This document shows, piece after piece, positions 3,612 to 50,521 of a DNA stretch of 64,000 nt. The translations under genes and the position numbers were made by a program. The notes under the pieces were generated by a model. It did not search any database, was not told the origin of the DNA, and saw nothing but the letters and a program-made list of their open reading frames with translations. Location: NCBI GenBank assembly GCA_037134695.1, contig JBAXLU010000001.1, forward strand, positions 11,551 to 75,550. Reading direction: 5' to 3'. The stretch is from Candidatus Nomurabacteria bacterium. GTDB lineage: Bacteria; Patescibacteriota; Minisyncoccia; Phycocordibacterales; UBA5272. Position 1 is the first letter of the stretch; the number at the start of each line of letters is the position of its first letter.

Positions 3612-4267
3612 TGTATAATTCCACAACTATGATGCAAATCACCACAGCGCCACGCGCACCAAAAGAAACAAAGAAAGATGGTTTTATTCCAGCTGTATAT
3701 TACGGCGCACAACAGGCCTCAACTCCTATTTTTATAGATTTTATTGAATTTAAGAAGGTTTTAGCAGACGCTGGTGAATCAAGTTCAATTACTCTTATTA
3801 CAGAGCATGGTAACGAAGTTGCTATGATTCAAGATGTTCAGCTTGATCCAGTAAAGGGTAACGCTGTGCATGCAGACTTTTACATTCTTAAAAAGGGACA
3901 AAAAGTACACGTTAAAACCCCAATTATTTTTGTTGGAGAGTCACAAGCTGTTAAAGAAGGTGGTGTGCTTGTAAAAGTAATGTATGAACTTTCTGTTGAA
4001 GGAGATCCAACTAAACTTCCTCATGAGTTCTCTGTAGATATTTCTGCTCTTGTTAATAAAGATAGTGTTATTCATGTAAAGGATTTGATTCTTCCAGCAG
4101 GTGTTGAGCTTTATCATGTAGATCCTCTAGATGCTGTTGTTTCTATTTCAGTTGCTCAGGAAGAAATTGCGATAGATGCTCCAGTTGCTGATTTATCAAC
4201 TATTGAAGTTGAAGCTAAAGGTAAGAAAGAAGGCGACGCGGAAGAAGGTGGAACAGACGCAGAATAA
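3611..4267 (+). CDS. rplY: 50S ribosomal protein L25 / general stress protein Ctc (long form)
   Basis: 218-aa ORF; N-terminus APRAPKETKKDGFIPAVYYG is typical L25/Ctc; acidic tail partly encoded by an ACGCAGAA/ACGCGGAAG repeat unit (4236-4275). Confidence 0.8.
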   Translation: MYNSTTMMQITTAPRAPKETKKDGFIPAVYYGAQQASTPIFIDFIEFKKVLADAGESSSITLITEHGNEVAMIQDVQLDPVKGNAVHADFYILKKGQKVHVKTPIIFVGESQAVKEGGVLVKVMYELSVEGDPTKLPHEFSVDISALVNKDSVIHVKDLILPAGVELYHVDPLDAVVSISVAQEEIAIDAPVADLSTIEVEAKGKKEGDAEEGGTDAE

Positions 4268-4293
4268 CGCGGAAAAATTCAAAAAAATACTAA

Positions 4294-4325
4294 AAGCGCG
4301 ACCTTCGGTCGCGTTTTTGTATTTT
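4294..4325 (+). terminator. intrinsic terminator after rplY
   Basis: hairpin GCGCGACC-TTCG-GGTCGCG followed by TTTTTGTATTTT. Confidence 0.55.
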
Positions 4326-9445: not shown

Positions 9446-9483
9446 TTTACTATCAACTATTAACCAGTAACTATCAACTACCC
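9446..9483 (+). promoter_or_regulatory. conserved leader motif upstream of tsf
   Basis: TTTACTATCAACTATTAACCAGTAACTATCAACTACCC ends 2 nt before the ATG; no GGAGG Shine-Dalgarno. Confidence 0.4.
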
Positions 9484-9485
9484 AT

Positions 9486-9953
9486 ATGGATACTATAAAA
9501 GAACTTCGTGAGGAAACAGGATTATCATTTGCACAAATTAAGAAAGCTCTTGATGAAGCAAATGGAGACAAAGAAAAGGCACGTGCTGTCCTTTCAGAAT
9601 ACTCTGCAGCTCAAGCAGAAAAGAAGGCTGACCGTGAAGTGGCAGCTGGCGTTGTCTCAGCTTATATTCATGGAAATGCTACAATTGGTGTTCTATTAGA
9701 GCTTGGTTGTGAAACTGACTTCGTTGCAAAGAATGAAGAGTTCGTAGCTCTTGCAAAAGATTTAGCTATGCATGTATGTGCTATGTCACCAACTTCAATT
9801 GATAATGAAGATGGTTTAGGAGAAGAAACAGCTTTACTTAAGCAAGCCTTCATTAAAGATCCTTCTATGACTGTAGAGCAAAAAATTCAAGCTGCCGTAC
9901 AAAAGTTTGGAGAGAACACAAAAGTGATTAAATTCACACGCTACGCCATCTAA
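9486..9953 (+). CDS. tsf: elongation factor Ts (short form)
   Basis: 155-aa ORF; N-terminal UBA-like TIKELREETGLSFAQIKKAL; gene order rpsB-tsf conserved. Confidence 0.8.
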   Translation: MDTIKELREETGLSFAQIKKALDEANGDKEKARAVLSEYSAAQAEKKADREVAAGVVSAYIHGNATIGVLLELGCETDFVAKNEEFVALAKDLAMHVCAMSPTSIDNEDGLGEETALLKQAFIKDPSMTVEQKIQAAVQKFGENTKVIKFTRYAI

Positions 9954-11503: not shown

Positions 11504-12766
11504 ATGATATATTCCATATTATATGGGCTCATGTATCCATTTCTATTTTTATCAATATATTTTCAAGTACTACTTTTAACTTCATTTTTTGAGAATAAAA
11601 AAAAGATTAAAAAGGAGGAAAAACATGAGATAAAAAATTATCCAACAGTAACTATTGTTGTTCCGTGTTGGAATGAAGAAAAAACACTTGCGTCTACTCT
11701 TGATTCACTGCTTGCACTTGATTATCCAAAAGATAAACTTTCAGTAATTGTTGTTGATGATGGAAGTAAAGATAGAACTCTTGCTATCGCTGAGATATAT
11801 GCATACAACAACTCAGAACAGATAAGAGTACTTTCAAAAGAAAATGGTGGTAAACATACCGCTGTTAATCTTGCTTTAGAAAATTCAAAATCAGATTTAT
11901 TTGGCTGTTTAGATGCAGACTCTTCAGTTGAAGTTAATACACTTAAAATAATGGTGTCATATTTTGATGCTGATAAAAGTGTTATGTCTGTAACTCCGTG
12001 TATACACATTCGTAACCCACGTACACTTATTCAACGATTACAAGCTACGGAATATTTAATAAATATATTTGTGCGTAAGGCATATGGACAGCTTGATTCT
12101 ATATTAGTGGCTCCAGGATCATTTTCTATATTCCGTAAAGAAGTATTTGAGATAGTTGGTAATTATAGCAAAGCTCATAATACAGAAGATTTCGAAATTA
12201 CTTTACGTATGCATAAAGCACATTTGAAGGTTATGAATTCACATAAAGCACTCGTGTATACAGTTGGTCCCGCAACAGCAAAAGGATTTTTTTATCAACA
12301 TTTACGTTGGGCTAGGGGATTTCTTGAAAACTCTATTAATTATCGCGAGTTATTTTTTAAAAAAGAATATGGTAATTTCGGTATGTTTACATTGCCTGTA
12401 GCTTTTATTTTTATATTTTATGGTTTGTATGCCACCATTTTTGCTGTTTATAGTATCTCGTCACAATTAATTATTTCTATTAACAGATGGGTTACGGTTG
12501 GTTTTCATCCACAAATGCCAATATTTGATCTTTTTTATTTTAATACCACAGTAATGTCGTTTATAGTAATGGTTATGTTTTCTATGCTTCTGTTAGTTCT
12601 TTATATCGGTAATACTCTTTCAGATGACAAACAACAGTTTTATATTAACTTTCCTATTTTTTTTGTTTTATACCCCATATTCGCTCCATTATTTTTTGGA
12701 CGTGCAGTTTTTGACACTTTCTTTAAAAGAAGAAATGAATGGGTGCTTCAGGATACGAAGAAGTAG
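11504..12766 (+). CDS. GT2-family processive membrane glycosyltransferase (cellulose/chitin/PNAG-synthase-like)
   Basis: 420-aa ORF; GT-A DxD (VVDDGSKDRT; LDADS), QxxRW motif (QHLRWARG), multiple TM helices. Confidence 0.8.
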   Translation: MIYSILYGLMYPFLFLSIYFQVLLLTSFFENKKKIKKEEKHEIKNYPTVTIVVPCWNEEKTLASTLDSLLALDYPKDKLSVIVVDDGSKDRTLAIAEIYAYNNSEQIRVLSKENGGKHTAVNLALENSKSDLFGCLDADSSVEVNTLKIMVSYFDADKSVMSVTPCIHIRNPRTLIQRLQATEYLINIFVRKAYGQLDSILVAPGSFSIFRKEVFEIVGNYSKAHNTEDFEITLRMHKAHLKVMNSHKALVYTVGPATAKGFFYQHLRWARGFLENSINYRELFFKKEYGNFGMFTLPVAFIFIFYGLYATIFAVYSISSQLIISINRWVTVGFHPQMPIFDLFYFNTTVMSFIVMVMFSMLLLVLYIGNTLSDDKQQFYINFPIFFVLYPIFAPLFFGRAVFDTFFKRRNEWVLQDTKK

Positions 12767-12810
12767 TCTATAAAGTTCATAAAGTTGAAAGTTTATAAAG
12801 TGGGTCCGAT

Positions 12811-12853
12811 GCGAGCGACCCCCAAGTGGTCGCTCGCGTCGTATTTTGGTTTA
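12811..12853 (+). terminator. intrinsic terminator after the GT2 gene, embedded in an AT-motif palindromic element
   Basis: GCGAGCGACC-CCCAAGT-GGTCGCTCGC then GTCGTATTTTGGTTT; flanked by inverted TTTATAAAGTTGAAAGT-type motifs (12767-12895). Confidence 0.6.
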
Positions 12854-12890
12854 CTTTCAACTTTATGAACTTTAAAAACTTTCAACTAAG

Positions 12891-13754
12891 ATGGCCGTTC
12901 ATAAATTTCATTTTTATGATAAAATGAAATTTATGAACGGCCATCTCCACCCCATTACTCTCGCAGTTGCACGTATTTCCGACATCTTTTCCAAGATGGG
13001 TTTTGATACAGTTGATGGTCCAGAGCTAGAAGATGAATGGCACAATTTTGATGCACTAAACGTTCCAGCTGATCACCCAGCGAGAGATATGCAGGATACC
13101 TTCTTCATCAGAATGGGTACTGATGAAGCGCAGACTAACGCAGAACGGACGCAGAAGGTCGCAGAAGGAATACAAAGGACAGGCATTAATAAATTCGGTG
13201 AACCCATGGGCTATGTTCTTCGTACACATACTAGTAACATGCAGATCCGCACTATGGAAAAATATACAGCGGAAGGTAAAGAATTGCCTATTGCTATTTG
13301 TTGCCCGGGAAAAGTTTTTCGCAATGAAGCAACAGACGCAACCCACGAAGCACAATTTCATCAAATAGAAATGTTATATGTTGCAAAAGATGCATCACTA
13401 GCTATGATGATAGGTGTAATTGAAAAGTTTTTCTCAGAATTTTTTGGAACAGATTTAGTGATTAGACTTCGTTCAAGTTATTTTCCATTCGTTGAGCCGG
13501 GCAATGAAGTGGATATGCAATGTTTTAAGTGTAAAGGTAGTGGTTGTAATATTTGTAAACAAACTGGTTGGATAGAAATAGGTGGTGCTGGAATGGTGCA
13601 TCCAAAAGTATTAGAAGCAGGAGGAATTAATCCAGCTGATTATCGTGGTTTTGCTTTTGGTTGTGGTATAGACAGAATGGTAATGCTTAAATATGGAATT
13701 GAAGATGTTCGTCTTTTGTATAATGGAGATTTAAGAGTGGTCAATCAATTTTAA
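12891..13754 (+). CDS. pheS: phenylalanine--tRNA ligase alpha subunit
   Basis: 287-aa ORF; class II motifs (LRTHTS, FRNEATDATHEAQFHQIEM, GAGMVHPKVL, GFAFGCGIDRM); alternative start at 12927; carries an in-frame short-repeat insertion at 13127-13185. Confidence 0.85.
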   Translation: MAVHKFHFYDKMKFMNGHLHPITLAVARISDIFSKMGFDTVDGPELEDEWHNFDALNVPADHPARDMQDTFFIRMGTDEAQTNAERTQKVAEGIQRTGINKFGEPMGYVLRTHTSNMQIRTMEKYTAEGKELPIAICCPGKVFRNEATDATHEAQFHQIEMLYVAKDASLAMMIGVIEKFFSEFFGTDLVIRLRSSYFPFVEPGNEVDMQCFKCKGSGCNICKQTGWIEIGGAGMVHPKVLEAGGINPADYRGFAFGCGIDRMVMLKYGIEDVRLLYNGDLRVVNQF

Positions 13755-13756
13755 TT

Positions 13757-15721
13757 ATGAAATTTTCTAAAGCGTGGTTACAAGATTATATTGTCGAGAC
13801 ACTTCCAGAAGATGGTGTGATTTCAGAGGCTTTTAATAAAAAATCTTTTGAAGTTGAAGAAACGCGGACTATCGCGGAACAAACGCAGAATGACGCGGAA
13901 GGAATACAAACTGACGATTATAAGGATACGGTTTTTGATATTAAAGTTTTACCAAATAGAGCCCACGATGCATTAGGCCACAGGGGTATGGCCCGTGAAC
14001 TTTGTGCAGATTTTGGTTTTACATTTAAGGAAGATGAGAGAATAAATAAAAACGAATCTTTTTTTGACTCAACTATTCCGGCTCCAGCAGTTTCAATAGA
14101 AAATGGTGAAAAATGTACTCGTTTTATGGGAATAAGAATAGATGGTGTAATGGTCACAGAAAGCCCAAAATGGCTCAGAGAAAGGCTTGAATCTATAGGA
14201 CAGCGAAGTATTAACAATATTGTTGATATCACTAACTATGTGCAGTTTTCGCTCAATAAGCCTATGCATGCTTATGACACAAGGAGTATTAAGGGTATTT
14301 TGGGTGCGCGCGTAGCGCGCACTGGTGAGATGCTAGTTACTTTGGATGAAAAGTCACTTAATCTTGATACTCAAACTCTTGTAATTGTAGATGATGAAAA
14401 AGTTCTAGGGCTAGCTGGAATAAAAGGAGGAAAATTTAGTGGTATACAATCTGATACAACAAGTGTTATTTTAGAGAGTGCAAATTTCGAACCAACCCTT
14501 ATCCGCAAGACTTCACAGAAATATGATTTAAGAACAGATGCTTCAAAACGTTTTGAAAATGGAATTGCAAACTCTTTAATTGAAGAAGGTTTATATATGA
14601 CCGCAAATCTAATTAAAGAATTATGTGCTGATGCGAAGGTTTCACTTGTAACAGATATTTATCCAAAGGTAGATGAGATATTTTCATTATCTGTTTCACT
14701 TGATGAAATTAATGCAATATTAGGTACAAAATATTCTAGGGAAGAAGTAGAAGAAACATTTAAAAAACTTTTATTTAAATTTACGACAAAAGGAAATGTT
14801 TATACAGTTGAAGTTCCATCTGAAAGACTAGATATACGAATTAAAGAAGATGTCACAGAAGAAGTGGGACGTATTATTGGATATGACAAACTTATACCAA
14901 CTCTTCCTGTTTTAAATCGCGTAGGTCTTCCTCATAAGAGAATGTTTTATGAAAATAAAATAAGAGAAATTTTAGTGAGAAATGGTTTCTCTGAAGTCAT
15001 GACTTATACTTTTGGTGATCAGGGTGAGGTGGAACTTGTAAAAGGATTGGCTCTAGATAAAGAAAAACTTCGTGACAGTTTAGGTAATGGTATATTAAAT
15101 TCTCTATCATTAAATCTTTACAACGCACCACTTCTCGGTGAAAAAACAATTAAGATTTTTGAAATTGGGAATGTTTTTGGAAAAGATACAGAGACAAGAC
15201 ATTTATCTCTTGCAATTGATGACGGTGCGAAGAAAAGTAATTTCACAGATGGAGTCGATATGATATTAGTTGAAATTAAACGCACTTTAGAATTGCCATC
15301 ACTTGAATGTACAACAGTTTCAACTAAACCTTATGTTATTGAAATTGATTTTGATACAATGATTGCATCACTTCCGGAGCCTACAAATTATGAAGCGCCT
15401 ACATTCACGTCTTTACCTTTCGTTAATTACAAATCAGTCTCGTCTTATCCGTTTATTGCCCGTGATATTGCTATGTGGGTACCTGCTGTTACAACATGGG
15501 AGAGTATCAATAATCTTTGTGCTGAAGTACGGAATACTCTTGTTACTCGTGTTGATCTTTTTGATACTTTCACGAAAGAAATAGAGGGCATAAGAAAAAC
15601 TTCTTTCGCATTTCGCTTAGTTTTTCAAAGTTATGAAAAGACATTAACAGATGAAGAGGTGAATGAAATGATGGAAGCTTATTATAAAGTTTTTAAGGAA
15701 AAAGGTTACGAGATTCGCTAA
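13757..15721 (+). CDS. pheT: phenylalanine--tRNA ligase beta subunit (short form lacking N-terminal OB domain)
   Basis: 654-aa ORF directly after pheS; B3/B4 and B5 and C-terminal anticodon-binding-like regions recognisable; in-frame short-repeat insertion at 13866-13912. Confidence 0.8.
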   Translation: MKFSKAWLQDYIVETLPEDGVISEAFNKKSFEVEETRTIAEQTQNDAEGIQTDDYKDTVFDIKVLPNRAHDALGHRGMARELCADFGFTFKEDERINKNESFFDSTIPAPAVSIENGEKCTRFMGIRIDGVMVTESPKWLRERLESIGQRSINNIVDITNYVQFSLNKPMHAYDTRSIKGILGARVARTGEMLVTLDEKSLNLDTQTLVIVDDEKVLGLAGIKGGKFSGIQSDTTSVILESANFEPTLIRKTSQKYDLRTDASKRFENGIANSLIEEGLYMTANLIKELCADAKVSLVTDIYPKVDEIFSLSVSLDEINAILGTKYSREEVEETFKKLLFKFTTKGNVYTVEVPSERLDIRIKEDVTEEVGRIIGYDKLIPTLPVLNRVGLPHKRMFYENKIREILVRNGFSEVMTYTFGDQGEVELVKGLALDKEKLRDSLGNGILNSLSLNLYNAPLLGEKTIKIFEIGNVFGKDTETRHLSLAIDDGAKKSNFTDGVDMILVEIKRTLELPSLECTTVSTKPYVIEIDFDTMIASLPEPTNYEAPTFTSLPFVNYKSVSSYPFIARDIAMWVPAVTTWESINNLCAEVRNTLVTRVDLFDTFTKEIEGIRKTSFAFRLVFQSYEKTLTDEEVNEMMEAYYKVFKEKGYEIR

Positions 15722-19580: not shown

Positions 19581-21752
<2,172 letters not shown>

Positions 21753-34865: not shown

Positions 34866-36056
34866 ATGAAAACTCCAATCAAAATTTACATGGATCACGC
34901 AGCTACGACACCCACACGAGCAGATGTGCTTAATGTGATGTTACCGTATTTTAATGAGGAATATGGAAATCCTTCTTCACTTTATTTTTCTGGTAGAAAA
35001 TCTAATTCTGTAATAGAAAAATCGCGACATAATATTGCAAATATTTTAGGTGTTGAAAAGGATGAGATAATTTTTACAGCGAGTGGAACTGAGTCAGATA
35101 ATATGGCTATTTTAGGAATAGCAAGAGCAAATCGTGAATATGGTAATCATATTTTAATTTCTGCAATTGAACACAAAGCGATTATTGAATCTGCTAAGCA
35201 GTTGGAAAAAGAAGGTTTTATTGTTGAATATATTCCAGTAGATAAGTTTGGAATGATTGATATACAAGATGTTATATCTCGCATTACAGATAAAACTATT
35301 TTAATTTCTGTAATGTATGCAAATAATGAAATCGGCACAATACAACCAATCAAGGAATTGGGGGATGCCATAAAAAGCTACAAGCTACAGGCTAATGGCT
35401 ACCTGCTGTTCCATACCGATGCCTGCCAAGCGGCTGGCTGTCTATCGCTTAACATAAATGATCTCGGGGTGGATATGATGACTCTTAATGGTTCAAAAAT
35501 TTATGGTCCAAAAGGTATTGGTATTTTGTATAAAAATAAAAATGTAAAAATAGAGCCGATTATTTCAGGTGGTGGACAAGAGCGGGGACTGCGAAGTGGA
35601 ACACAAAATCTTCCAGCTATTGTAGGATTTGATTTTGCACTCACGCATGTTGAAGAAAGAAGAGAAAAAGAATCTCAGAGGCTTACAGAAATTCGTGATT
35701 ATTTTATCAAAGGATTGAGTACCTCAATTCCAGATTTGGTTTTAAACGGTCACCGAATATCTCGATTGCCAAATAATATTCATATTTCTATACCTGCTGT
35801 AGAAGGGGAATCAATGCTTTTAATGTTAGATGAGATGGGAATACAGGCTTCTACTGGTTCAGCGTGTTCTGCGTCAGATTTGCAGGTCTCACATGTGCTT
35901 TTAGCCATTAAACAAGATGTGTCACTTATGCATGGAAGCTTAAGGTTTACTATAGGTGAAAAGACAAGCAAAGAGGATTGTGATTATGTTATTTCTTCAT
36001 TAATTGATATTGTAAATAAACTAAAAAAGATTTCTCCGATAAAAAACCATGAATAA
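34866..36056 (+). CDS. iscS: cysteine desulfurase (class V aminotransferase, IscS/NifS-like)
   Basis: 396-aa ORF; PLP-lysine region LNGSKIYGPKGIGILY, active-site Cys loop STGSACSA; a 31-nt repeat copy lies in frame at 35371-35401. Confidence 0.85.
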   Translation: MKTPIKIYMDHAATTPTRADVLNVMLPYFNEEYGNPSSLYFSGRKSNSVIEKSRHNIANILGVEKDEIIFTASGTESDNMAILGIARANREYGNHILISAIEHKAIIESAKQLEKEGFIVEYIPVDKFGMIDIQDVISRITDKTILISVMYANNEIGTIQPIKELGDAIKSYKLQANGYLLFHTDACQAAGCLSLNINDLGVDMMTLNGSKIYGPKGIGILYKNKNVKIEPIISGGGQERGLRSGTQNLPAIVGFDFALTHVEERREKESQRLTEIRDYFIKGLSTSIPDLVLNGHRISRLPNNIHISIPAVEGESMLLMLDEMGIQASTGSACSASDLQVSHVLLAIKQDVSLMHGSLRFTIGEKTSKEDCDYVISSLIDIVNKLKKISPIKNHE

Positions 36057-45238: not shown

Positions 45239-45384
45239 TCTAAACTGGATAATCTGTAAAAGAAAATGCCACCCGTTAGGGTGGCATTCTCATGTGTTCT
45301 TCATCTATAAGCCGAGTTCTGTATTTGTATAGACATTTATCTTGTCTCTACATTGCTGTAAAGATCTAGCGACACTCTCCCAAC

Positions 45385-45515
45385 GCTCCGCATTGGGCGC
45401 AGAAGTACGCAGACTTAACGCTGACTGACGCAGAAGAATGCAATTTGTATTTTTCTGCGACCTTCTGCGTTCGTTCAGCGATGTTCTGCGCTTAATGCGA
45501 AGCATTAAGAGCACG
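45385..45515. repeat. imperfect ~110-bp palindrome built from ACGCAGAAG/ACGCGGAAG units (family D)
   Basis: left arm GCGCAGAAGTACGCAGACTTAACGCTGACTGACGCAGAAGAATGC, right arm is its near reverse complement; same units occur in frame in rplY, pheS, pheT and gyrB; ORFs 45305-45592(-) and 45438-45698(+) here are probably not genes. Confidence 0.6.
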
Positions 45516-45762
45516 GTCTTGCACACACGTATGTATTTAGCCGTTTCAGCCGGACTAAACCGGATCGTTTCTGTTCGCAACACAATGGTCACCCATGATG
45601 GGAATTACCCACTACGCTTGTTATGTAAACATAACTATGTGCTCGGACTTTCCTCACGATATTACTATCGCGCGTCTACCCAACAAAGAACTTTATAACG
45701 ATACTACATTTTTACTAGTATGTCAAAGTTTTTATTTAGTATATGTTATAATATATATTAAT

Positions 45763-49172: not shown

Positions 49173-49283
49173 TACTTAAGTTCGAGATCTGAATAATATT
49201 AAAGCTATTATTATTCACCTAATATCTGAATCATTTTTAGTCCGATGGTAAGCCTAAAATATTTAGTGATATACTTTTAATAT

Positions 49284-49874
49284 ATGAAAACAATAAAGAC
49301 ATTAACACTGGTTTCTGTTCTTGTATTTGGAATGACTACCTCAGCTTTCGCATCATGGTGGAATCCATTTAGTTGGGGTTGGTTTAAAAAGAATTCTCCA
49401 AAAGTGCAAGTTGTTTAAACTGAAGTGGTAAGTTCAACTGAAAAAGTTAGTAATGATTTAACGACAGGAAATGCAACAGAAGAAATGAAGGGGTGGAAGA
49501 CTTATACAAATTCTCAGTATGGATTTGAGATTAAATTACCTTCTAGATGGGTAAATGTTCAAGATAAAGAGATTGTCGTTAATGATAAACATAAATATAT
49601 TAATTTTAATCTTAAAACAAAATCAGGAGGAATCGGTGCTGTTTTTTCAATAGACGTGTTTGCGGAGCAAGAGTGGGATAAATCAGTGAAAGAAGATCCT
49701 CTGTTTGGAGTGATAAAGATTGCAGAAAAAAATGGATATGTATTTGGATATACCAAAGGTCAAGACGATGGGGGTTATTTAGGCTTCCCAGAAGTTATAC
49801 CCAATGAAGCCTACAAGGGGCCTTATTATGATGTTAGTAATTTAATTATTCCAACATTTAAATTTATTAAATAA
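49284..49874 (+). pseudogene. secreted-protein gene interrupted by a single in-frame TAA (or sequencing error)
   Basis: 49284-49415 encodes a signal peptide MKTIKTLTLVSVLVFGMTTSAFA...; TAA at 49416-49418; the same frame continues as the annotated 49425-49874 ORF (GTG start). Confidence 0.4.
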
Positions 49875-49878
49875 AAAT

Positions 49879-50280
49879 ATGGTGTATTATGGACGAATTC
49901 CTTTTAGAAGACCAAAAAGCATTTCGACAGGACAGCTTGTTTTGTTGATGACAGCTTTTCCTTTTATTCTTGCTGTTTTATTTGTAGTCGCACGTGCTCT
50001 TACAAAATATGTAGTATGTCCAGCATTAATCAACACCAGTTCTCTTTGTGGAGGGTATTACAATGTAGGAATGTTACTGATTATATTTTTTACTTTTCTT
50101 ATAATTTCCTTCCTTATTTTTATAATTATAGTTGTAAAGAGATTTTCTAGTAGAAATAATCTTAAAAATCTTTCTCAATTTCAAGAGTCAAAAAATAAGA
50201 TTTTACAAATGGTAAAAGATTCTAATCCAAATATTACTGATGAAGAATTAGATAGAATAATGAAACAAGCAGGTGTTTAA
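49879..50280 (+). CDS. hypothetical membrane protein
   Basis: 133-aa ORF with two hydrophobic segments. Confidence 0.3.
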   Translation: MVYYGRIPFRRPKSISTGQLVLLMTAFPFILAVLFVVARALTKYVVCPALINTSSLCGGYYNVGMLLIIFFTFLIISFLIFIIIVVKRFSSRNNLKNLSQFQESKNKILQMVKDSNPNITDEELDRIMKQAGV

Positions 50281-50521
50281 AAATGCAGAACTAACGCGGA
50301 ATAATACAAAAAATAAAGGGTGACTCCTACGAAGCCACCCTGTATTTTCCATAAACTAGTAACCAATAACTATTTAATTAAGGCGATTAGTGAAAAACCA
50401 ACCATACCAACAATAGCTAGTATTGAAATTATGGCCCAGATCTTATGAAGAAGTTTTCTATTTTTTGATGTGAAAAGCATATATGTTTTTTTTGATATGT
50501 TAGAATAATACTAACAATAAT

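What the first reader, a model, noticed from the sequence alone, without database searches (positions are those of the whole stretch)
13127..13912. Short ACGCAGAA / ACGCGGAAG repeat units inserted in frame in both pheS and pheT
Seen directly. pheS 13127-13185 reads GAAGCGCAGACTAACGCAGAACGGACGCAGAAGGTCGCAGAAGGAATACAAA, encoding EAQTNAERTQKVAEGIQ. pheT 13866-13912 reads ATCGCGGAACAAACGCAGAATGACGCGGAAGGAATACAAA, encoding [13 protein letters not shown]. The two segments share the unit structure and even the ...GCAGAAGGAATACAAA tail. In PheS the segment sits between the DTFF and LRTHTS motifs, where E. coli PheS has only about six residues. The same units occur in gyrB, in rplY, and as an intergenic palindrome at 45385-45515. 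One stretch there (ACGCAGAAGGTCGCAGAA) is identical to the pheS copy. This looks like a short sequence element that can land in frame in essential genes and be tolerated as a surface loop. That would be analogous to Rickettsia palindromic elements, but with units of only ~40-60 nt.
Basis: partly seen in the sequence, partly recalled or inferred. Interest (0 to 1): 0.7.

Follow-up and report, generated by a model that had tools for sequence, protein, structure and literature searches.

The report
Relic arms of nuclease-linked insertion cassettes
The short repeats inside pheS and pheT are leftover halves of a selfish DNA cassette, apparently undescribed, that is widespread in ultra-small (CPR/Patescibacteria) bacteria, sits in frame inside essential protein genes and inside rRNA and RNase P RNA, and in its complete form carries an uncharacterised "GxxExxY" nuclease gene.

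Summary
pheS, pheT, gyrB and rplY each carry a 45-52 nt module of four CGCRGA units, spaced 10/11/10 nt, followed by a GGAATACAAA tail. The "intergenic palindrome" lies inside the RNase P RNA gene and consists of two such modules in inverted orientation.

Codon bias does not explain the modules. Units are read in different frames, they occur in RNA genes, and the closest relative (PheS about 86-93% identical) has empty sites in both pheS and pheT.

An exact-pattern scan found the module in more than 118 loci, 62 of them labelled as CPR lineages. Full copies have this order:
- hairpin
- four units
- variable loop
- four inverted units
- hairpin

Full copies sit in 16S and 23S rRNA, in RNase P RNA, and are read through in frame in IF2, LepA, GatB, LeuRS, PheS, TsaD and other genes. 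In LepA and LeuRS the loop holds a complete PD-(D/E)XK nuclease (Pfam PDDEXK_3, TIGR04256 GxxExxY). Free-standing GxxExxY genes from other phyla carry the same inverted unit arrays.

The window therefore holds relics: solo arms and one nuclease-less copy. Movement by nuclease-driven homing is my inference and is not shown. I found no published description.

The parts
13107..13124 (+). Short hairpin ATCAG-aatgggta-CTGAT at the 5' edge of the pheS insert. I read it as a remnant of the element's flanking hairpin A. The left half is the host Ile-Arg codons and the right half is their inverted copy.
   Evidence: Read from the sequence. Analogous hairpins flank full copies elsewhere.
13129..13166 (+). 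Alpha arm in pheS: CGCAGAC taa CGCAGAA cgga CGCAGAA ggt CGCAGAA. Four units spaced 10/11/10 nt, translated as AQTNAERTQKVAE.
   Evidence: (nhmmer E 2.9e-12). The segment is absent from the closest relative L207.
13167..13176 (+). Tail GGAATACAAA (G-I-Q). It matches the left half of the apical mini-palindrome AATACAA..TTGTATT seen in full copies, so the half copy ends at the symmetry centre.
   Evidence: Compared with the RNase P copy and with L096, L076, L046 and L039.
13862..13912 (+). Alpha arm plus tail in pheT (ACGCGGAC tat CGCGGAA caaa CGCAGAA tga CGCGGAA GGAATACAAA), translated as [16 protein letters not shown]. It lies where relatives have a 7-residue linker.
   Evidence: E 1.7e-12. The site is empty in L207 and L208 and holds other variants in L001, L002 and L003.
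4237..4283 (+). Partial alpha arm forming the last codons of rplY (GDAEEGGTDAE, then stop) and running into the 3' UTR.
   Evidence: (E 2.8e-5). Pfam identifies L25/TL5.
4291..4319 (+). G+C-rich terminator-like hairpin right after the rplY arm, in an A-tract / TTTTTGTATTTT context. It corresponds to the apical hairpin of the element family.
   Evidence: Compare L120, which has a GC hairpin between its two arms.
21427..21470 (+). Degenerate alpha arm in the acidic linker of GyrB, between the Toprim and C-terminal domains ([15 protein letters not shown]).
   Evidence: (E 7.4e-5). The orthologous linker in L001 has the same length but only faint units, so this copy is the least certain.
45292..45691 (-). 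RNase P RNA gene (bacterial type A), the host of the full short element.
   Evidence: Rfam RF00010, 104.1 bits, E about 1e-30.
45379..45509 (-). Full nuclease-less element inside the RNase P P15-P17 region.
- Hairpin: 45491-45509.
- Alpha-type arm, read on the minus strand: 45454-45490.
- Apical AATACAAATTGCATT.
- Beta-type arm, read on the plus strand: 45398-45434.
- Hairpin: 45379-45397.
   Evidence: both arms E about 1e-13. It folds as a rod at -61 kcal/mol, z -7.6. The arms are absent from the RNase P gene of the close relative L209.
50283..50341 (+). Two residual units (GCAGAA cta ACGCGGAA TAATACAAAAAA) directly after a stop codon, followed by a terminator-like hairpin at 50317-50341.
   Evidence: (weak, E 0.43). 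TAACGCGGAATAATA plus a hairpin is conserved in L209.

Best explanation
The pheS and pheT segments are decayed half copies (one arm plus the start of the apical loop) of a family of selfish insertion cassettes.

The complete cassette has this order:
- a small hairpin;
- an alpha arm of four CGCRGA units, spaced 10/11/10 nt;
- a roughly 124-codon PD-(D/E)XK nuclease ORF of the GxxExxY / PDDEXK_3 family;
- an inverted beta arm of four units;
- a second small hairpin.

Shown:
- Cassettes and their nuclease-less derivatives sit in conserved housekeeping genes, where they are read through in frame.
- They also sit in helices of 16S rRNA, 23S rRNA and RNase P RNA.
- The units contain no stop codon in five of six frames and encode hydrophilic A/E/Q/T/R/G or S/A/P/R peptides. 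The arms can fold into a rod.

Inferred:
- These properties let the insert be tolerated either as a protein loop or as an RNA helix extension.
- The nuclease drives copying into new or empty sites, by a double-strand break followed by repair from a filled copy (homing-like).
- Copies then decay in place: first the nuclease ORF is lost (short palindromic form, as in the window's RNase P RNA), then one arm is lost at the palindrome centre (half form, as in pheS, pheT, rplY and gyrB).

The window holds only relics and no nuclease gene.
For: 1. The element acts at the DNA level, not the peptide level.
- The module architecture is fixed in every copy.
- Units are read in two frames within a module.
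- The arm is used in all three sense frames (9, 5 and 22 cases) and in antisense (12 cases) in ORFs of 200 aa or more.
- Copies occur in RNase P RNA and in rRNAs.

2. Sites are filled in some close relatives and empty in others.
- L207 (PheS about 86-93% identical depending on the alignment, same gene order) has both sites empty, giving +60 nt in pheS and +45 nt in pheT in the window.
- L208 has a filled pheS site and an empty pheT site.
- The RNase P arms are absent from L209, which is about 85% identical at the nucleotide level.
- In a PheS tree, sequences with inserts are scattered among sequences without them.

3. Copying within a genome. In L001 the pheT copy and the C39-peptidase copy share 33 identical nt.

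4. Breadth. More than 118 loci matched the exact pattern, and 62 are labelled as CPR lineages. By my reading of the translations, the in-frame hosts include IF2, GatB (3 sites), LepA, LeuRS, PheS, TsaD, Tgt, DnaG, TopA, UvrA/B, MnmA and RNase HII.

5. Link to the nuclease.
- All 7 GxxExxY domains in the fetched loci lie exactly between an alpha arm and an inverted arm.
- All 5 free-standing GxxExxY genes, fetched by protein similarity alone, have inverted arrays of four GCAGA-type units on both sides.
- The D..E.K catalytic triad is invariant, including in the embedded copies.
- The predicted structure has a PD-(D/E)XK fold.

6. A decay series at a single site. In LeuRS, L026 has the nuclease, L106 and L113 have the short full form, and L006 has a half copy. 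In PheS, L069 is full, the window has a hairpin plus one arm, other relatives have an arm only, and L207 is empty.
Against: - No nuclease gene is present in the 64-kb window, so activity in this genome is unproven.
- The loci used for the 7-of-7 count were selected by the arm pattern, which biases that count. Only the 5 free-standing genes are independent of it.
- Host sites are very diverse. A single sequence-specific homing nuclease does not easily explain that.
- The arms are conserved far more strictly than mere tolerance would require, which suggests a recognition role I could not identify.
- The spacers between units are not complementary between the two arms (within-element pairing 0.17-0.55, no higher than in shuffles), so the predicted rod is weak.
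- The gyrB copy could be an acidic linker that only resembles the arm.
- No cleavage, expression or proteomic data exist.
Confidence: 0.7

Rival explanations
1. The segments are ancestral, lineage-specific surface loops. Their nucleotide similarity comes from codon bias for an acidic/Ala/Gln peptide.
For: All four coding copies in the window use the same frame and give A/E/Q/T-rich peptides. The GyrB linker is acidic in a relative as well.
Against: - The closest relative lacks both inserts.
- Units are read in different frames within one module and in all frames across genomes.
- The same module occurs in RNase P RNA, 16S rRNA and 23S rRNA.
- The 10/11/10 spacing and the tail are conserved at the nucleotide level.
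Confidence: 0.03
2. The short elements are ordinary MITE-like transposable elements. Their arms are terminal inverted repeats with multiple binding sites for a transposase encoded elsewhere, and the GxxExxY ORF is only a passenger or an accessory nuclease.
For: Inverted arms made of four phased repeats resemble the multi-site ends of transposons such as Tn7 and Mu (from my own knowledge). Short copies far outnumber nuclease-bearing copies. An rRNA subfamily carries identical flanking hairpins (GTCAGTGC / GCCAATGC) at several different rRNA sites, so the whole unit including the hairpins seems to move.
Against: No direct target-site duplications were seen. Instead, the flanks show inverted copies of host sequence. 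No transposase was seen next to any copy. The nuclease ORF sits precisely between the arms in 7 of 7 embedded and 5 of 5 free-standing cases. Different decay stages share the same host site.
Confidence: 0.15
3. The unit arrays are functional cis-elements kept by selection in the host. They could be a phased binding array for a CPR-specific DNA- or RNA-binding protein, a processing or RNase III site, or a terminator module. On this view they are not selfish DNA.
For: CGC-N-GA and its spacing are conserved very strictly across deep CPR lineages while the spacers vary. The 10-11 nt phasing would place all units on one face of a helix. Partial copies are coupled to terminator hairpins at gene ends. 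Copies lie in 5' leaders of rRNA.
Against: Close relatives differ in presence or absence at the same essential-gene sites. Copies decay, for example to CACAGA/TATAGA in L002. Outside the modules the motif is not over-represented in the window. The occupied sites have no common function.
Confidence: 0.08
4. The elements are removed after transcription, as a new kind of protein-dependent intron cut out by the PD-(D/E)XK enzyme acting on RNA, so their coding content does not matter.
Against: Every full copy found inside a long ORF is stop-free and keeps the host frame on both sides, and so do the nuclease-bearing copies. That is unnecessary for a spliced element. Half copies cannot form the rod, yet they persist in essential genes. 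No Rfam intron or ribozyme matched.
Confidence: 0.04

Closest known systems
Rickettsia palindromic elements (RPE-1 to RPE-8)
   Same: Both are interspersed palindromic repeats of about 100-150 bp, found between genes and in frame inside protein-coding genes, in small-genome bacteria. An RPE-7 insert even sits in Rickettsia PheT (Blanc et al. 2007, PMC1779305). The inserted peptides are tolerated.
   Different: - The host phylum differs (Patescibacteria).
- I did not test for sequence relatedness.
- The arms here are phased arrays of four 6-nt units with non-complementary spacers.
- Many copies sit in rRNA and RNase P RNA.
- To my knowledge, no nuclease-bearing autonomous form has been described for RPEs. 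This family has one (GxxExxY).
- The window's pheS and pheT copies are half elements.
Homing endonuclease genes in group I introns and inteins, and free-standing homing endonuclease genes
   Same: Both involve a nuclease ORF embedded at conserved sites of essential genes (translation GTPases, aminoacyl-tRNA synthetases, rRNA). The same site is occupied in distant hosts. Sites are filled in some relatives and empty in others. One site shows a decay series from nuclease-bearing to nuclease-less to empty, which is the classical homing cycle (from my own knowledge). PD-(D/E)XK homing enzymes exist, for example I-Ssp6803I (from memory).
   Different: No self-splicing intron was found (no Rfam hit). 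No intein or Hint domain was found: the LepA fusions carry only PF13366 and PF00009. The insert is simply read through. The conserved flanking unit arrays have no counterpart in known homing elements. Site-specific cleavage is untested.
Intervening sequences (IVS) in bacterial rRNA, and the short non-intron insertions in CPR rRNA catalogued by Tsurumaki et al. 2024 (PMC11270868)
   Same: Both are extra stem-loops at helix tips of 16S and 23S rRNA. The CPR paper reports many short non-intron insertions at known IVS sites.
   Different: That paper does not describe the unit arrays, copies in protein genes, or a GxxExxY link: my search of its text for palindrome, hairpin and repeat found 0 occurrences. 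Excision by RNase III is unknown for this family.
Bacterial MITEs and REP-type repeats (Correia/NEMIS, ERIC, REP/BIME with RAYT)
   Same: Both are short, non-coding, palindromic, multi-copy elements that can be co-transcribed with genes and can supply terminators.
   Different: These elements are mostly extragenic. They have direct target duplications or a GTAG motif and DDE or HUH transposase partners (from my own knowledge). Here I saw no direct duplications. Copies are in frame within genes, and the partner is a PD-(D/E)XK nuclease.
Coding palindromes in Nematomorpha mitochondrial genes (PMC6649704)
   Same: Both are inverted repeats embedded in protein-coding genes with both arms translated (abstract seen).
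   Different: They occur in animal mitochondria, have no unit arrays and no nuclease, and are unrelated in origin.

Membership tests
Rickettsia palindromic elements (RPE) | Interspersed 100-150 bp palindromic repeat | tested here: met
   Full copies are about 120-150 nt. The window's RNase P copy spans 131 nt. The pheS and pheT copies are only halves of 45-60 nt.
Rickettsia palindromic elements (RPE) | In-frame insertion in protein-coding genes, tolerated by the host protein | tested here: met
Rickettsia palindromic elements (RPE) | Sequence homology to the RPE consensus families, and occurrence in Rickettsiales | not tested
   No RPE models were available. The host is a Candidatus Nomurabacteria MAG. 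I treat RPEs as an analogue and do not claim membership.
MITE (non-autonomous DNA transposon) | Terminal inverted repeats | tested here: met
   Inverted arms of four units each.
MITE (non-autonomous DNA transposon) | Direct target-site duplication | tested here: not met
   I saw no direct duplications at the junctions I read. Instead, the flanking hairpins consist of host codons plus their inverted copy.
MITE (non-autonomous DNA transposon) | Autonomous partner that encodes a transposase | tested here: not met
   The only ORF found between arms is a PD-(D/E)XK nuclease, PF13366 / TIGR04256.
Homing endonuclease element (intron- or intein-borne) | Endonuclease ORF inside the element | tested here: met
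   Met in relatives (7 loci). Not met in the window itself, where tblastn found no hit.
Homing endonuclease element (intron- or intein-borne) | Self-splicing intron or intein that removes the insert | tested here: not met
   No Rfam family matched a full copy. The LepA fusions carry only PF13366 and PF00009. ORFs read straight through.
Homing endonuclease element (intron- or intein-borne) | Site-specific cleavage of the empty allele, followed by copying through repair | not testable with these tools
   This needs biochemistry. The only indirect evidence is that the same site is occupied in distant hosts and that decay series exist.
rRNA intervening sequence (IVS) | Extra stem-loop inserted at a helix of rRNA | tested here: met
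   Copies lie in 16S helix 6 and other 16S and 23S positions in relatives. No rRNA gene is present in the window.
rRNA intervening sequence (IVS) | Excision by RNase III, giving fragmented rRNA | not testable with these tools
   No RNA data are available.
GxxExxY / PDDEXK_3 nuclease cassette (family proposed here) | Inverted arrays of four GCAGA-type units at about 10-11 nt spacing, flanking the insert | tested here: met
   In the window, both arms are present in RNase P and single arms in pheS, pheT, rplY and gyrB. The same arrays flank 7 embedded and 5 free-standing GxxExxY genes.
GxxExxY / PDDEXK_3 nuclease cassette (family proposed here) | GxxExxY nuclease ORF between the arms | tested here: not met
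   None in the 64-kb window. The window copies are nuclease-less relics.
Any Rfam RNA family | Covariance-model match at or near the gathering score | tested here: not met
   The only hit was a chance-level RAGATH-25 match, E 8.3.

The most novel reading that the evidence does not exclude
GxxExxY cassettes may be a previously unrecognised class of homing-type mobile element that needs neither an intron nor an intein.

On this reading, the phased, stop-free arms make the insert tolerable both as a hydrophilic protein linker and as an RNA rod. That would let the cassette colonise conserved sites of essential protein genes, rRNA and RNase P RNA across Patescibacteria, with variants in other phyla.

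Insertion or maintenance would generate inverted duplications of the host flanks, seen as hairpins that covary with host codons. This would point to a hairpin or fold-back intermediate, or to template-switch correction. It would also give the large, function-unknown PDDEXK_3 family its first biological role.
Probability: 0.4. Interest if true: 0.9.

Novelty: new variant of a known kind. Interest (0 to 1): 0.78.

Why it matters
If the reading holds, several things follow.

- It gives a biological role to the widespread GxxExxY / PDDEXK_3 nuclease family, listed as function unknown in the 2012 superfamily survey (PMC3424549).
- It accounts for part of the unexplained short insertions in CPR rRNA and RNase P RNA.
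- It accounts for some of the lineage-specific inserts in CPR housekeeping proteins.
- It shows a third way, besides introns and inteins, for a nuclease gene to live inside essential genes: simple read-through of a frame-neutral cassette.

There are practical consequences too. The inserts can mislead gene callers: the RNase P RNA of the relative L209, readable by eye, fell below Rfam's gathering threshold. Arm-only relics inflate apparent protein divergence. Sites that are filled in some strains and empty in others could serve as strain markers in CPR populations.

Tried and rejected
- **Metagenome scan for PheS relatives.** It was useless for testing presence or absence.
- **Structure prediction of the window PheS.** Mean pLDDT was 41, so I could not map the insert onto a model. 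I used alignments to solved PheS chains instead.
- **Rfam on 18 loci at once.** The call failed internally. I repeated it with 10 loci.
- **Rfam at a permissive E-value on a full copy.** No family matched.
- **DNA-uptake-sequence or Chi-like reading.** Rejected, because outside the modules CGCRGA is not enriched.
- **Simple perfect hairpin.** Rejected, because the spacers and the central base of each unit are not complementary between the two arms.
- **Pure "inverted target-site duplication" as a universal rule.** Weakened, because the rRNA subfamily carries the same flanking stems at different rRNA sites.
- **Last contig look-ups.** One relative had no stored DNA. The window's terminal ORF was not on record. 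So the rest of the source contig and its accession were not obtained.
- **Literature searches.** I found no description of these elements.


Full report
**1. The observation**

The window is AT-rich, at about 33% G+C. Its PheS is named in NCBI as coming from a Candidatus Nomurabacteria MAG.

Each segment is a module with a fixed architecture: CGCRGA(M) N3 CGCRGAA N3-A CGCRGAA N3 CGCRGAA, followed by GGAATACAAA. The unit spacing is 10, 11 and 10 nt. The two modules align without gaps over 52 nt, match at about 42 of 52 positions by hand count, and are read in the same frame.

Further copies in the window:
- the last codons of rplY (4237-4283);
- the acidic linker of gyrB (21427-21470);
- just after a stop codon at 50283-50310;
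- two inverted arms at 45398-45490.

Chance does not explain this. ACGCRGAA occurs 13 times against 1.7 expected. Chains of three or more GCRGA units at 9-12 nt spacing occur three times, against none in 200 shuffles. Pfam confirms PheS, PheT, GyrB and L25.

Two corrections apply:
- The "intergenic palindrome" lies inside an RNase P RNA gene (RF00010, 45292-45691 minus strand), as an insertion in the P15-P17 arm.
- The match at 35867 falls in the cysteine-desulfurase gene, in a GSACSAS peptide that I take from memory to be its conserved active-site region, so I count it as a false positive.

**2. A DNA-level element, not a peptide**

Because the spacing is 10/11/10 nt, successive units fall in different codon phases. 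In pheS they read A-Q, A-E, T-Q, A-E. In a relative's C39-peptidase gene the same module is read in another frame, as SADSRGTDAEQRGKNT. Across genomes the arm is used in all three sense frames (9, 5 and 22 cases) and in antisense (12 cases) inside ORFs of 200 aa or more. The same module also occurs in structural RNAs. Codon bias cannot produce this pattern.

**3. Filled and empty sites in close relatives**

Among 120 PheS homologues the basic length is 253 aa. About 40 carry inserts of 10-31 residues at exactly this site.

The closest relative is the contig L207. Its PheS is about 86-93% identical to the window's, depending on the alignment, and it has the same gene order (glycosyltransferase, pheS, pheT). 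Both of its sites are empty:
- pheS reads ...TGG ATT AAA | GAT AGA AAA GGA..., so the window has +60 nt.
- pheT reads FEVEE-IITTEIV-TVFDIKV, so the window has +45 nt.

Other relatives differ again:
- L208 has a filled pheS site and an empty pheT site.
- L001, L002 and L003 carry different variants at the same sites: CGCGGA-type, CGCAGAC-type with 9/10/9 spacing, or decayed CACAGA/TATAGA.
- In L001 the pheT and C39-peptidase copies share 33 identical nt, which indicates recent copying within that genome.

In a rough neighbour-joining tree, the window's PheS is sister to the insert-free P0009. Insert-bearing sequences appear in at least ten separate places next to insert-free ones. The tree has no support values and is only indicative.

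The RNase P gene of L209, which is about 85% identical to the window over 23 kb, has hairpin, 25 AT-rich nt, hairpin where the window has hairpin, arms, hairpin.

The inserts are not ancestral loops.

**4. The whole element and its distribution**

I ran one exact-pattern scan of 185,579 species-representative genomes with CGCRGAA N4 CGCRGAA N3 CGCRGAA. Counting the record titles by hand:
- 62 are labelled as CPR lineages: Nomura-, Vogel-, Wolfe-, Kaiser-, Harrison-, Giovannoni-, Yonath-, Zambryski-, Brenner-, Taylor- and Sungbacteria, Moraniibacteriota, Paceibacteria and Saccharibacteria.
- 16 are unclassified "bacterium" MAGs.
- 40 carry other labels. These mix G+C-rich matches that look like chance with apparent variants in Bacteroidota, Planctomycetota and Omnitrophota.

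By a looser count, 56 of the 129 pattern matches (which include copies in the window and L003) have inverted units (TCYGCG) within about 110 nt downstream. Thirty-eight physical copies have fully canonical spacing. Their order is:
- small hairpin A;
- four units (alpha arm, CGCRGAA-type);
- a loop of 3-37 nt;
- four inverted units (beta arm, more often CGCNGAC and CGCTGA);
- small hairpin B.

Stems of 6 bp or more lie next to the arms in 22 of 38 copies (hairpin A) and 31 of 38 copies (hairpin B). In shuffled sequence the counts are 2 and 5. There are 18 distinct A stems.

The arms pair only through the CGC and GA blocks. The central base of each unit and the spacers are no more complementary than in shuffled pairings (0.17-0.55 against 0.38-0.58). 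RNAfold still gives rods of -61 to -66 kcal/mol, with z-scores of -7 to -9.6. No Rfam family matches.

**5. Hosts**

Rfam and the flanking sequences place full copies at these RNA sites; the rRNA and RNase P positions beyond the Rfam gene calls are my reading of the flanks against the E. coli sequence:
- 16S rRNA helix 6 (L005, L064, L090);
- other 16S sites (L052, L053, L097);
- several 23S sites and rRNA leaders (L032, L042, L043, L044, L058, L075, L108);
- RNase P RNA at two different positions (the window, L007 and L047 at one; L076 at another).

At least 15 full copies lie inside long ORFs, are stop-free, and keep the host frame. By my reading of the translations the hosts are:
- IF2, in the G domain;
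- GatB, at three sites;
- LepA;
- LeuRS;
- TsaD, Tgt, DnaG, RNase HII, and ribosomal proteins S1 and S3;
- the PheS of a Saccharibacterium (L069), where a full copy lies in the same DTFW...LRTHTS loop as the window's insert.

Half copies occur in TopA, UvrA/B, MnmA, LeuRS, GatB and other genes.

**6. The link to a nuclease**

In six LepA genes and one LeuRS gene, the loop between the arms holds a complete domain of about 124 residues, in frame with the host on both sides. The domain matches Pfam PF13366 PDDEXK_3 (E 4.5e-34) and NCBIfam TIGR04256 "GxxExxY protein" (E 6e-36).

All seven such domains in the fetched loci have 3-5 alpha units upstream and four inverted units downstream. The cassettes span 456-524 nt.

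Those loci were selected by the arm pattern, so I also fetched five free-standing GxxExxY genes by protein similarity alone. All five have four GCAGA-type units at about 10-11 nt spacing immediately upstream and four inverted units downstream.
- In L203 the canonical CGCGGA/CGCGGA/CGCTGA/CGCAGA array ends 4 nt before the ATG.
- The Planctomycetota and Omnitrophota examples use variant units, (C)GCAGAT and CACAGAT.

**7. Decay series and the origin of half copies**

At the LeuRS site there is a nuclease-bearing cassette (L026), short full copies (L106, L113) and a half copy (L006). At the PheS site there is a full short copy (L069), a hairpin plus alpha arm plus tail (the window, L208), an arm plus tail (L001, L003 and many others), a hairpin only (the PFGTNGSPDQAKLGLGT-type inserts, as I infer from the L208 DNA) and an empty site (L207).

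The window's half copies end in GGAATACAAA. This is the left half of the apical mini-palindrome AATACAA..TTGTATT, which is present in the RNase P copy and in L039, L046, L076 and L096. One arm was therefore lost at the symmetry centre. That is what breakage or slippage at a palindrome tip would leave, but this is inference.

At gene ends (rplY, and 50283-50341) the residual units are followed by G+C-rich terminator-like hairpins in the same ATACAAA/TTTGTAT context.

**8. The flanking hairpins contain host sequence**

In the LepA cassettes, the left half of hairpin A is the host codons for P-(V/A)-R-M and the right half is their exact inverted copy. The two halves covary between loci:
- GTCAGGATGGTA | TACCATCCTGAC (L072);
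- GTGAGGATG..CATCCTCAC (L118);
- GTTAGAAT..ATTCTAAC (L066);
- GCAAGAATGTTG..CAACATTCTTGC (L045).

Hairpin B does the same with the host codons for Y-I-L-N-L. The LeuRS and GatB junctions, and the ATCAG...CTGAT hairpin in the window's pheS, behave alike.

Two explanations are possible:
- Insertion creates inverted duplications of the target flanks.
- Pairing is maintained afterwards, by selection or by template-switch "correction" of quasi-palindromes.

A caveat: an rRNA subfamily carries the same stems (GTCAGTGC / GCCAATGC) at several different rRNA sites, so in that subfamily the stems travel with the element.

At 16S helix 6 (L005 against L064) and in TsaD (L070 against L055, L089 and L119), the alpha and beta arms are swapped while the flanks stay the same. 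This is a flip/flop-like inversion.

**9. Mechanism, with confidence**

| Claim | Status | Confidence |
|---|---|---|
| The pheS and pheT segments belong to a repeat family acting at the DNA level and were gained or lost recently | shown | about 0.9 |
| The family's complete form carries a GxxExxY nuclease | shown | about 0.85 |
| The nuclease mobilises the cassette by a homing-like break-and-copy route, and short and half forms are in-place decay products | inferred | about 0.4-0.5 |
| The arms are tolerated because they lack stops and encode hydrophilic linkers or RNA rods | plausible | not estimated |

Tolerance alone does not explain the strict conservation of CGC-N-GA and its phasing. That conservation suggests a protein recognises the arms, and that part remains unexplained.

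**10. Comparison with known systems, and novelty**

The behaviour matches Rickettsia palindromic elements, which are 100-150 bp, occur in frame, and include an RPE-7 insert in Rickettsia PheT (PMC1779305). It also matches the homing cycle of endonuclease genes. However, there is no intron, no intein and no direct target duplication, and I know of no counterpart to the phased unit arrays.

Ten literature look-ups found no description. The CPR rRNA-insertion survey mentions only unclassified short insertions.

I rate this a new variant of a known kind (selfish in-frame or helix-tip insertion elements). There is a real chance that it is a new class of homing-type element.

Noticed in passing
window 12889-12946: A perfect 26-nt inverted repeat with a 6-nt loop. 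The right half contains the start of pheS (ATGAACGGCCATCT, encoding MNGHL), and the left half is its exact inverted copy. The palindrome is itself an in-frame, stop-free extension (MAVHKFHFYDKMKF...). It shows the same "host flank plus inverted copy" signature as the hairpins beside the cassettes. It would also sequester the start codon.
   Followed up: partly
window 12765-12887: An AT-rich palindromic element between the glycosyltransferase gene and pheS. It has 28-nt arms made of AAAGTT-type repeats around a G+C-rich terminator-like hairpin (12807-12841). The closest relative L207 has only a 36-nt spacer here, so this is an insertion. It may be a second element family with the same layout (arms plus central hairpin).
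   Followed up: partly
window 12891-13754 (pheS) and 13757-15721 (pheT): PheS here, and in all 120 relatives, is a core of about 253-290 aa. Alignments to solved bacterial PheS start at about residue 100 of those chains, so it lacks the usual N-terminal domain of about 100 residues. PheT is 654 aa in the window but 783-804 aa in relatives L001, L002, L003 and L208, whose products carry a (mostly weak) NlpC/P60 Pfam hit.
   Followed up: no
window 45292-45691 versus L209 about 9450-9950: The RNase P RNA gene lies between the DUF192 gene and murJ in both genomes, but on opposite strands. This is a local inversion between genomes about 85% identical. The L209 gene is readable by eye but fell below Rfam's gathering score.
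   Followed up: partly
window 49252-50289: A 1-kb segment with two small ORFs (149 aa and 133 aa; the second, the only one scanned, has no Pfam hit and looks membrane-like) is absent from the close relative L209. Its right edge abuts the residual CGCGGAA units and the terminator.
   Followed up: partly
L049 about 230-1100 (LepA of a Parcubacteria MAG): Upstream of the embedded nuclease, the LepA ORF carries several extra tandem alpha-arm-like repeats (MTQNNAEDHTATQP... repeated). Arms can therefore multiply in tandem.
   Followed up: no
L005 versus L064 (16S helix 6); L070 versus L055, L089 and L119 (TsaD): The host site and flanking hairpins are the same, but the alpha and beta arms are in opposite order. 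This is a flip/flop-like inversion of the inner part of the element.
   Followed up: partly
L014, L024 and L112 (Bacteroidetes MAG RA.bin83); L038, L109 and L111 (Bacteroidetes Skiv_18); L011, L033 and L071 (Planctomycetota MAG): Variant unit arrays (for example CGCTGAAATCCGCAGAAAGCACGCGGAAATCCGCAGA) without the flanking small hairpins, repeated on several contigs of the same non-CPR MAGs. The family, or a sister family, extends beyond Patescibacteria.
   Followed up: no
L043 2055-2404: A group I intron (RF00028) interrupts the 23S rRNA gene of a Paceibacter MAG that also carries a unit-array element in the 23S leader.
   Followed up: no
window 35858-35879: GTTCAGCGTGTTCTGCGTCAGAT resembles two inverted units. 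It encodes a GSACSAS peptide in the cysteine-desulfurase gene, which I take from memory to be the conserved active-site region. I count it as a chance match, not an element copy.
   Followed up: yes
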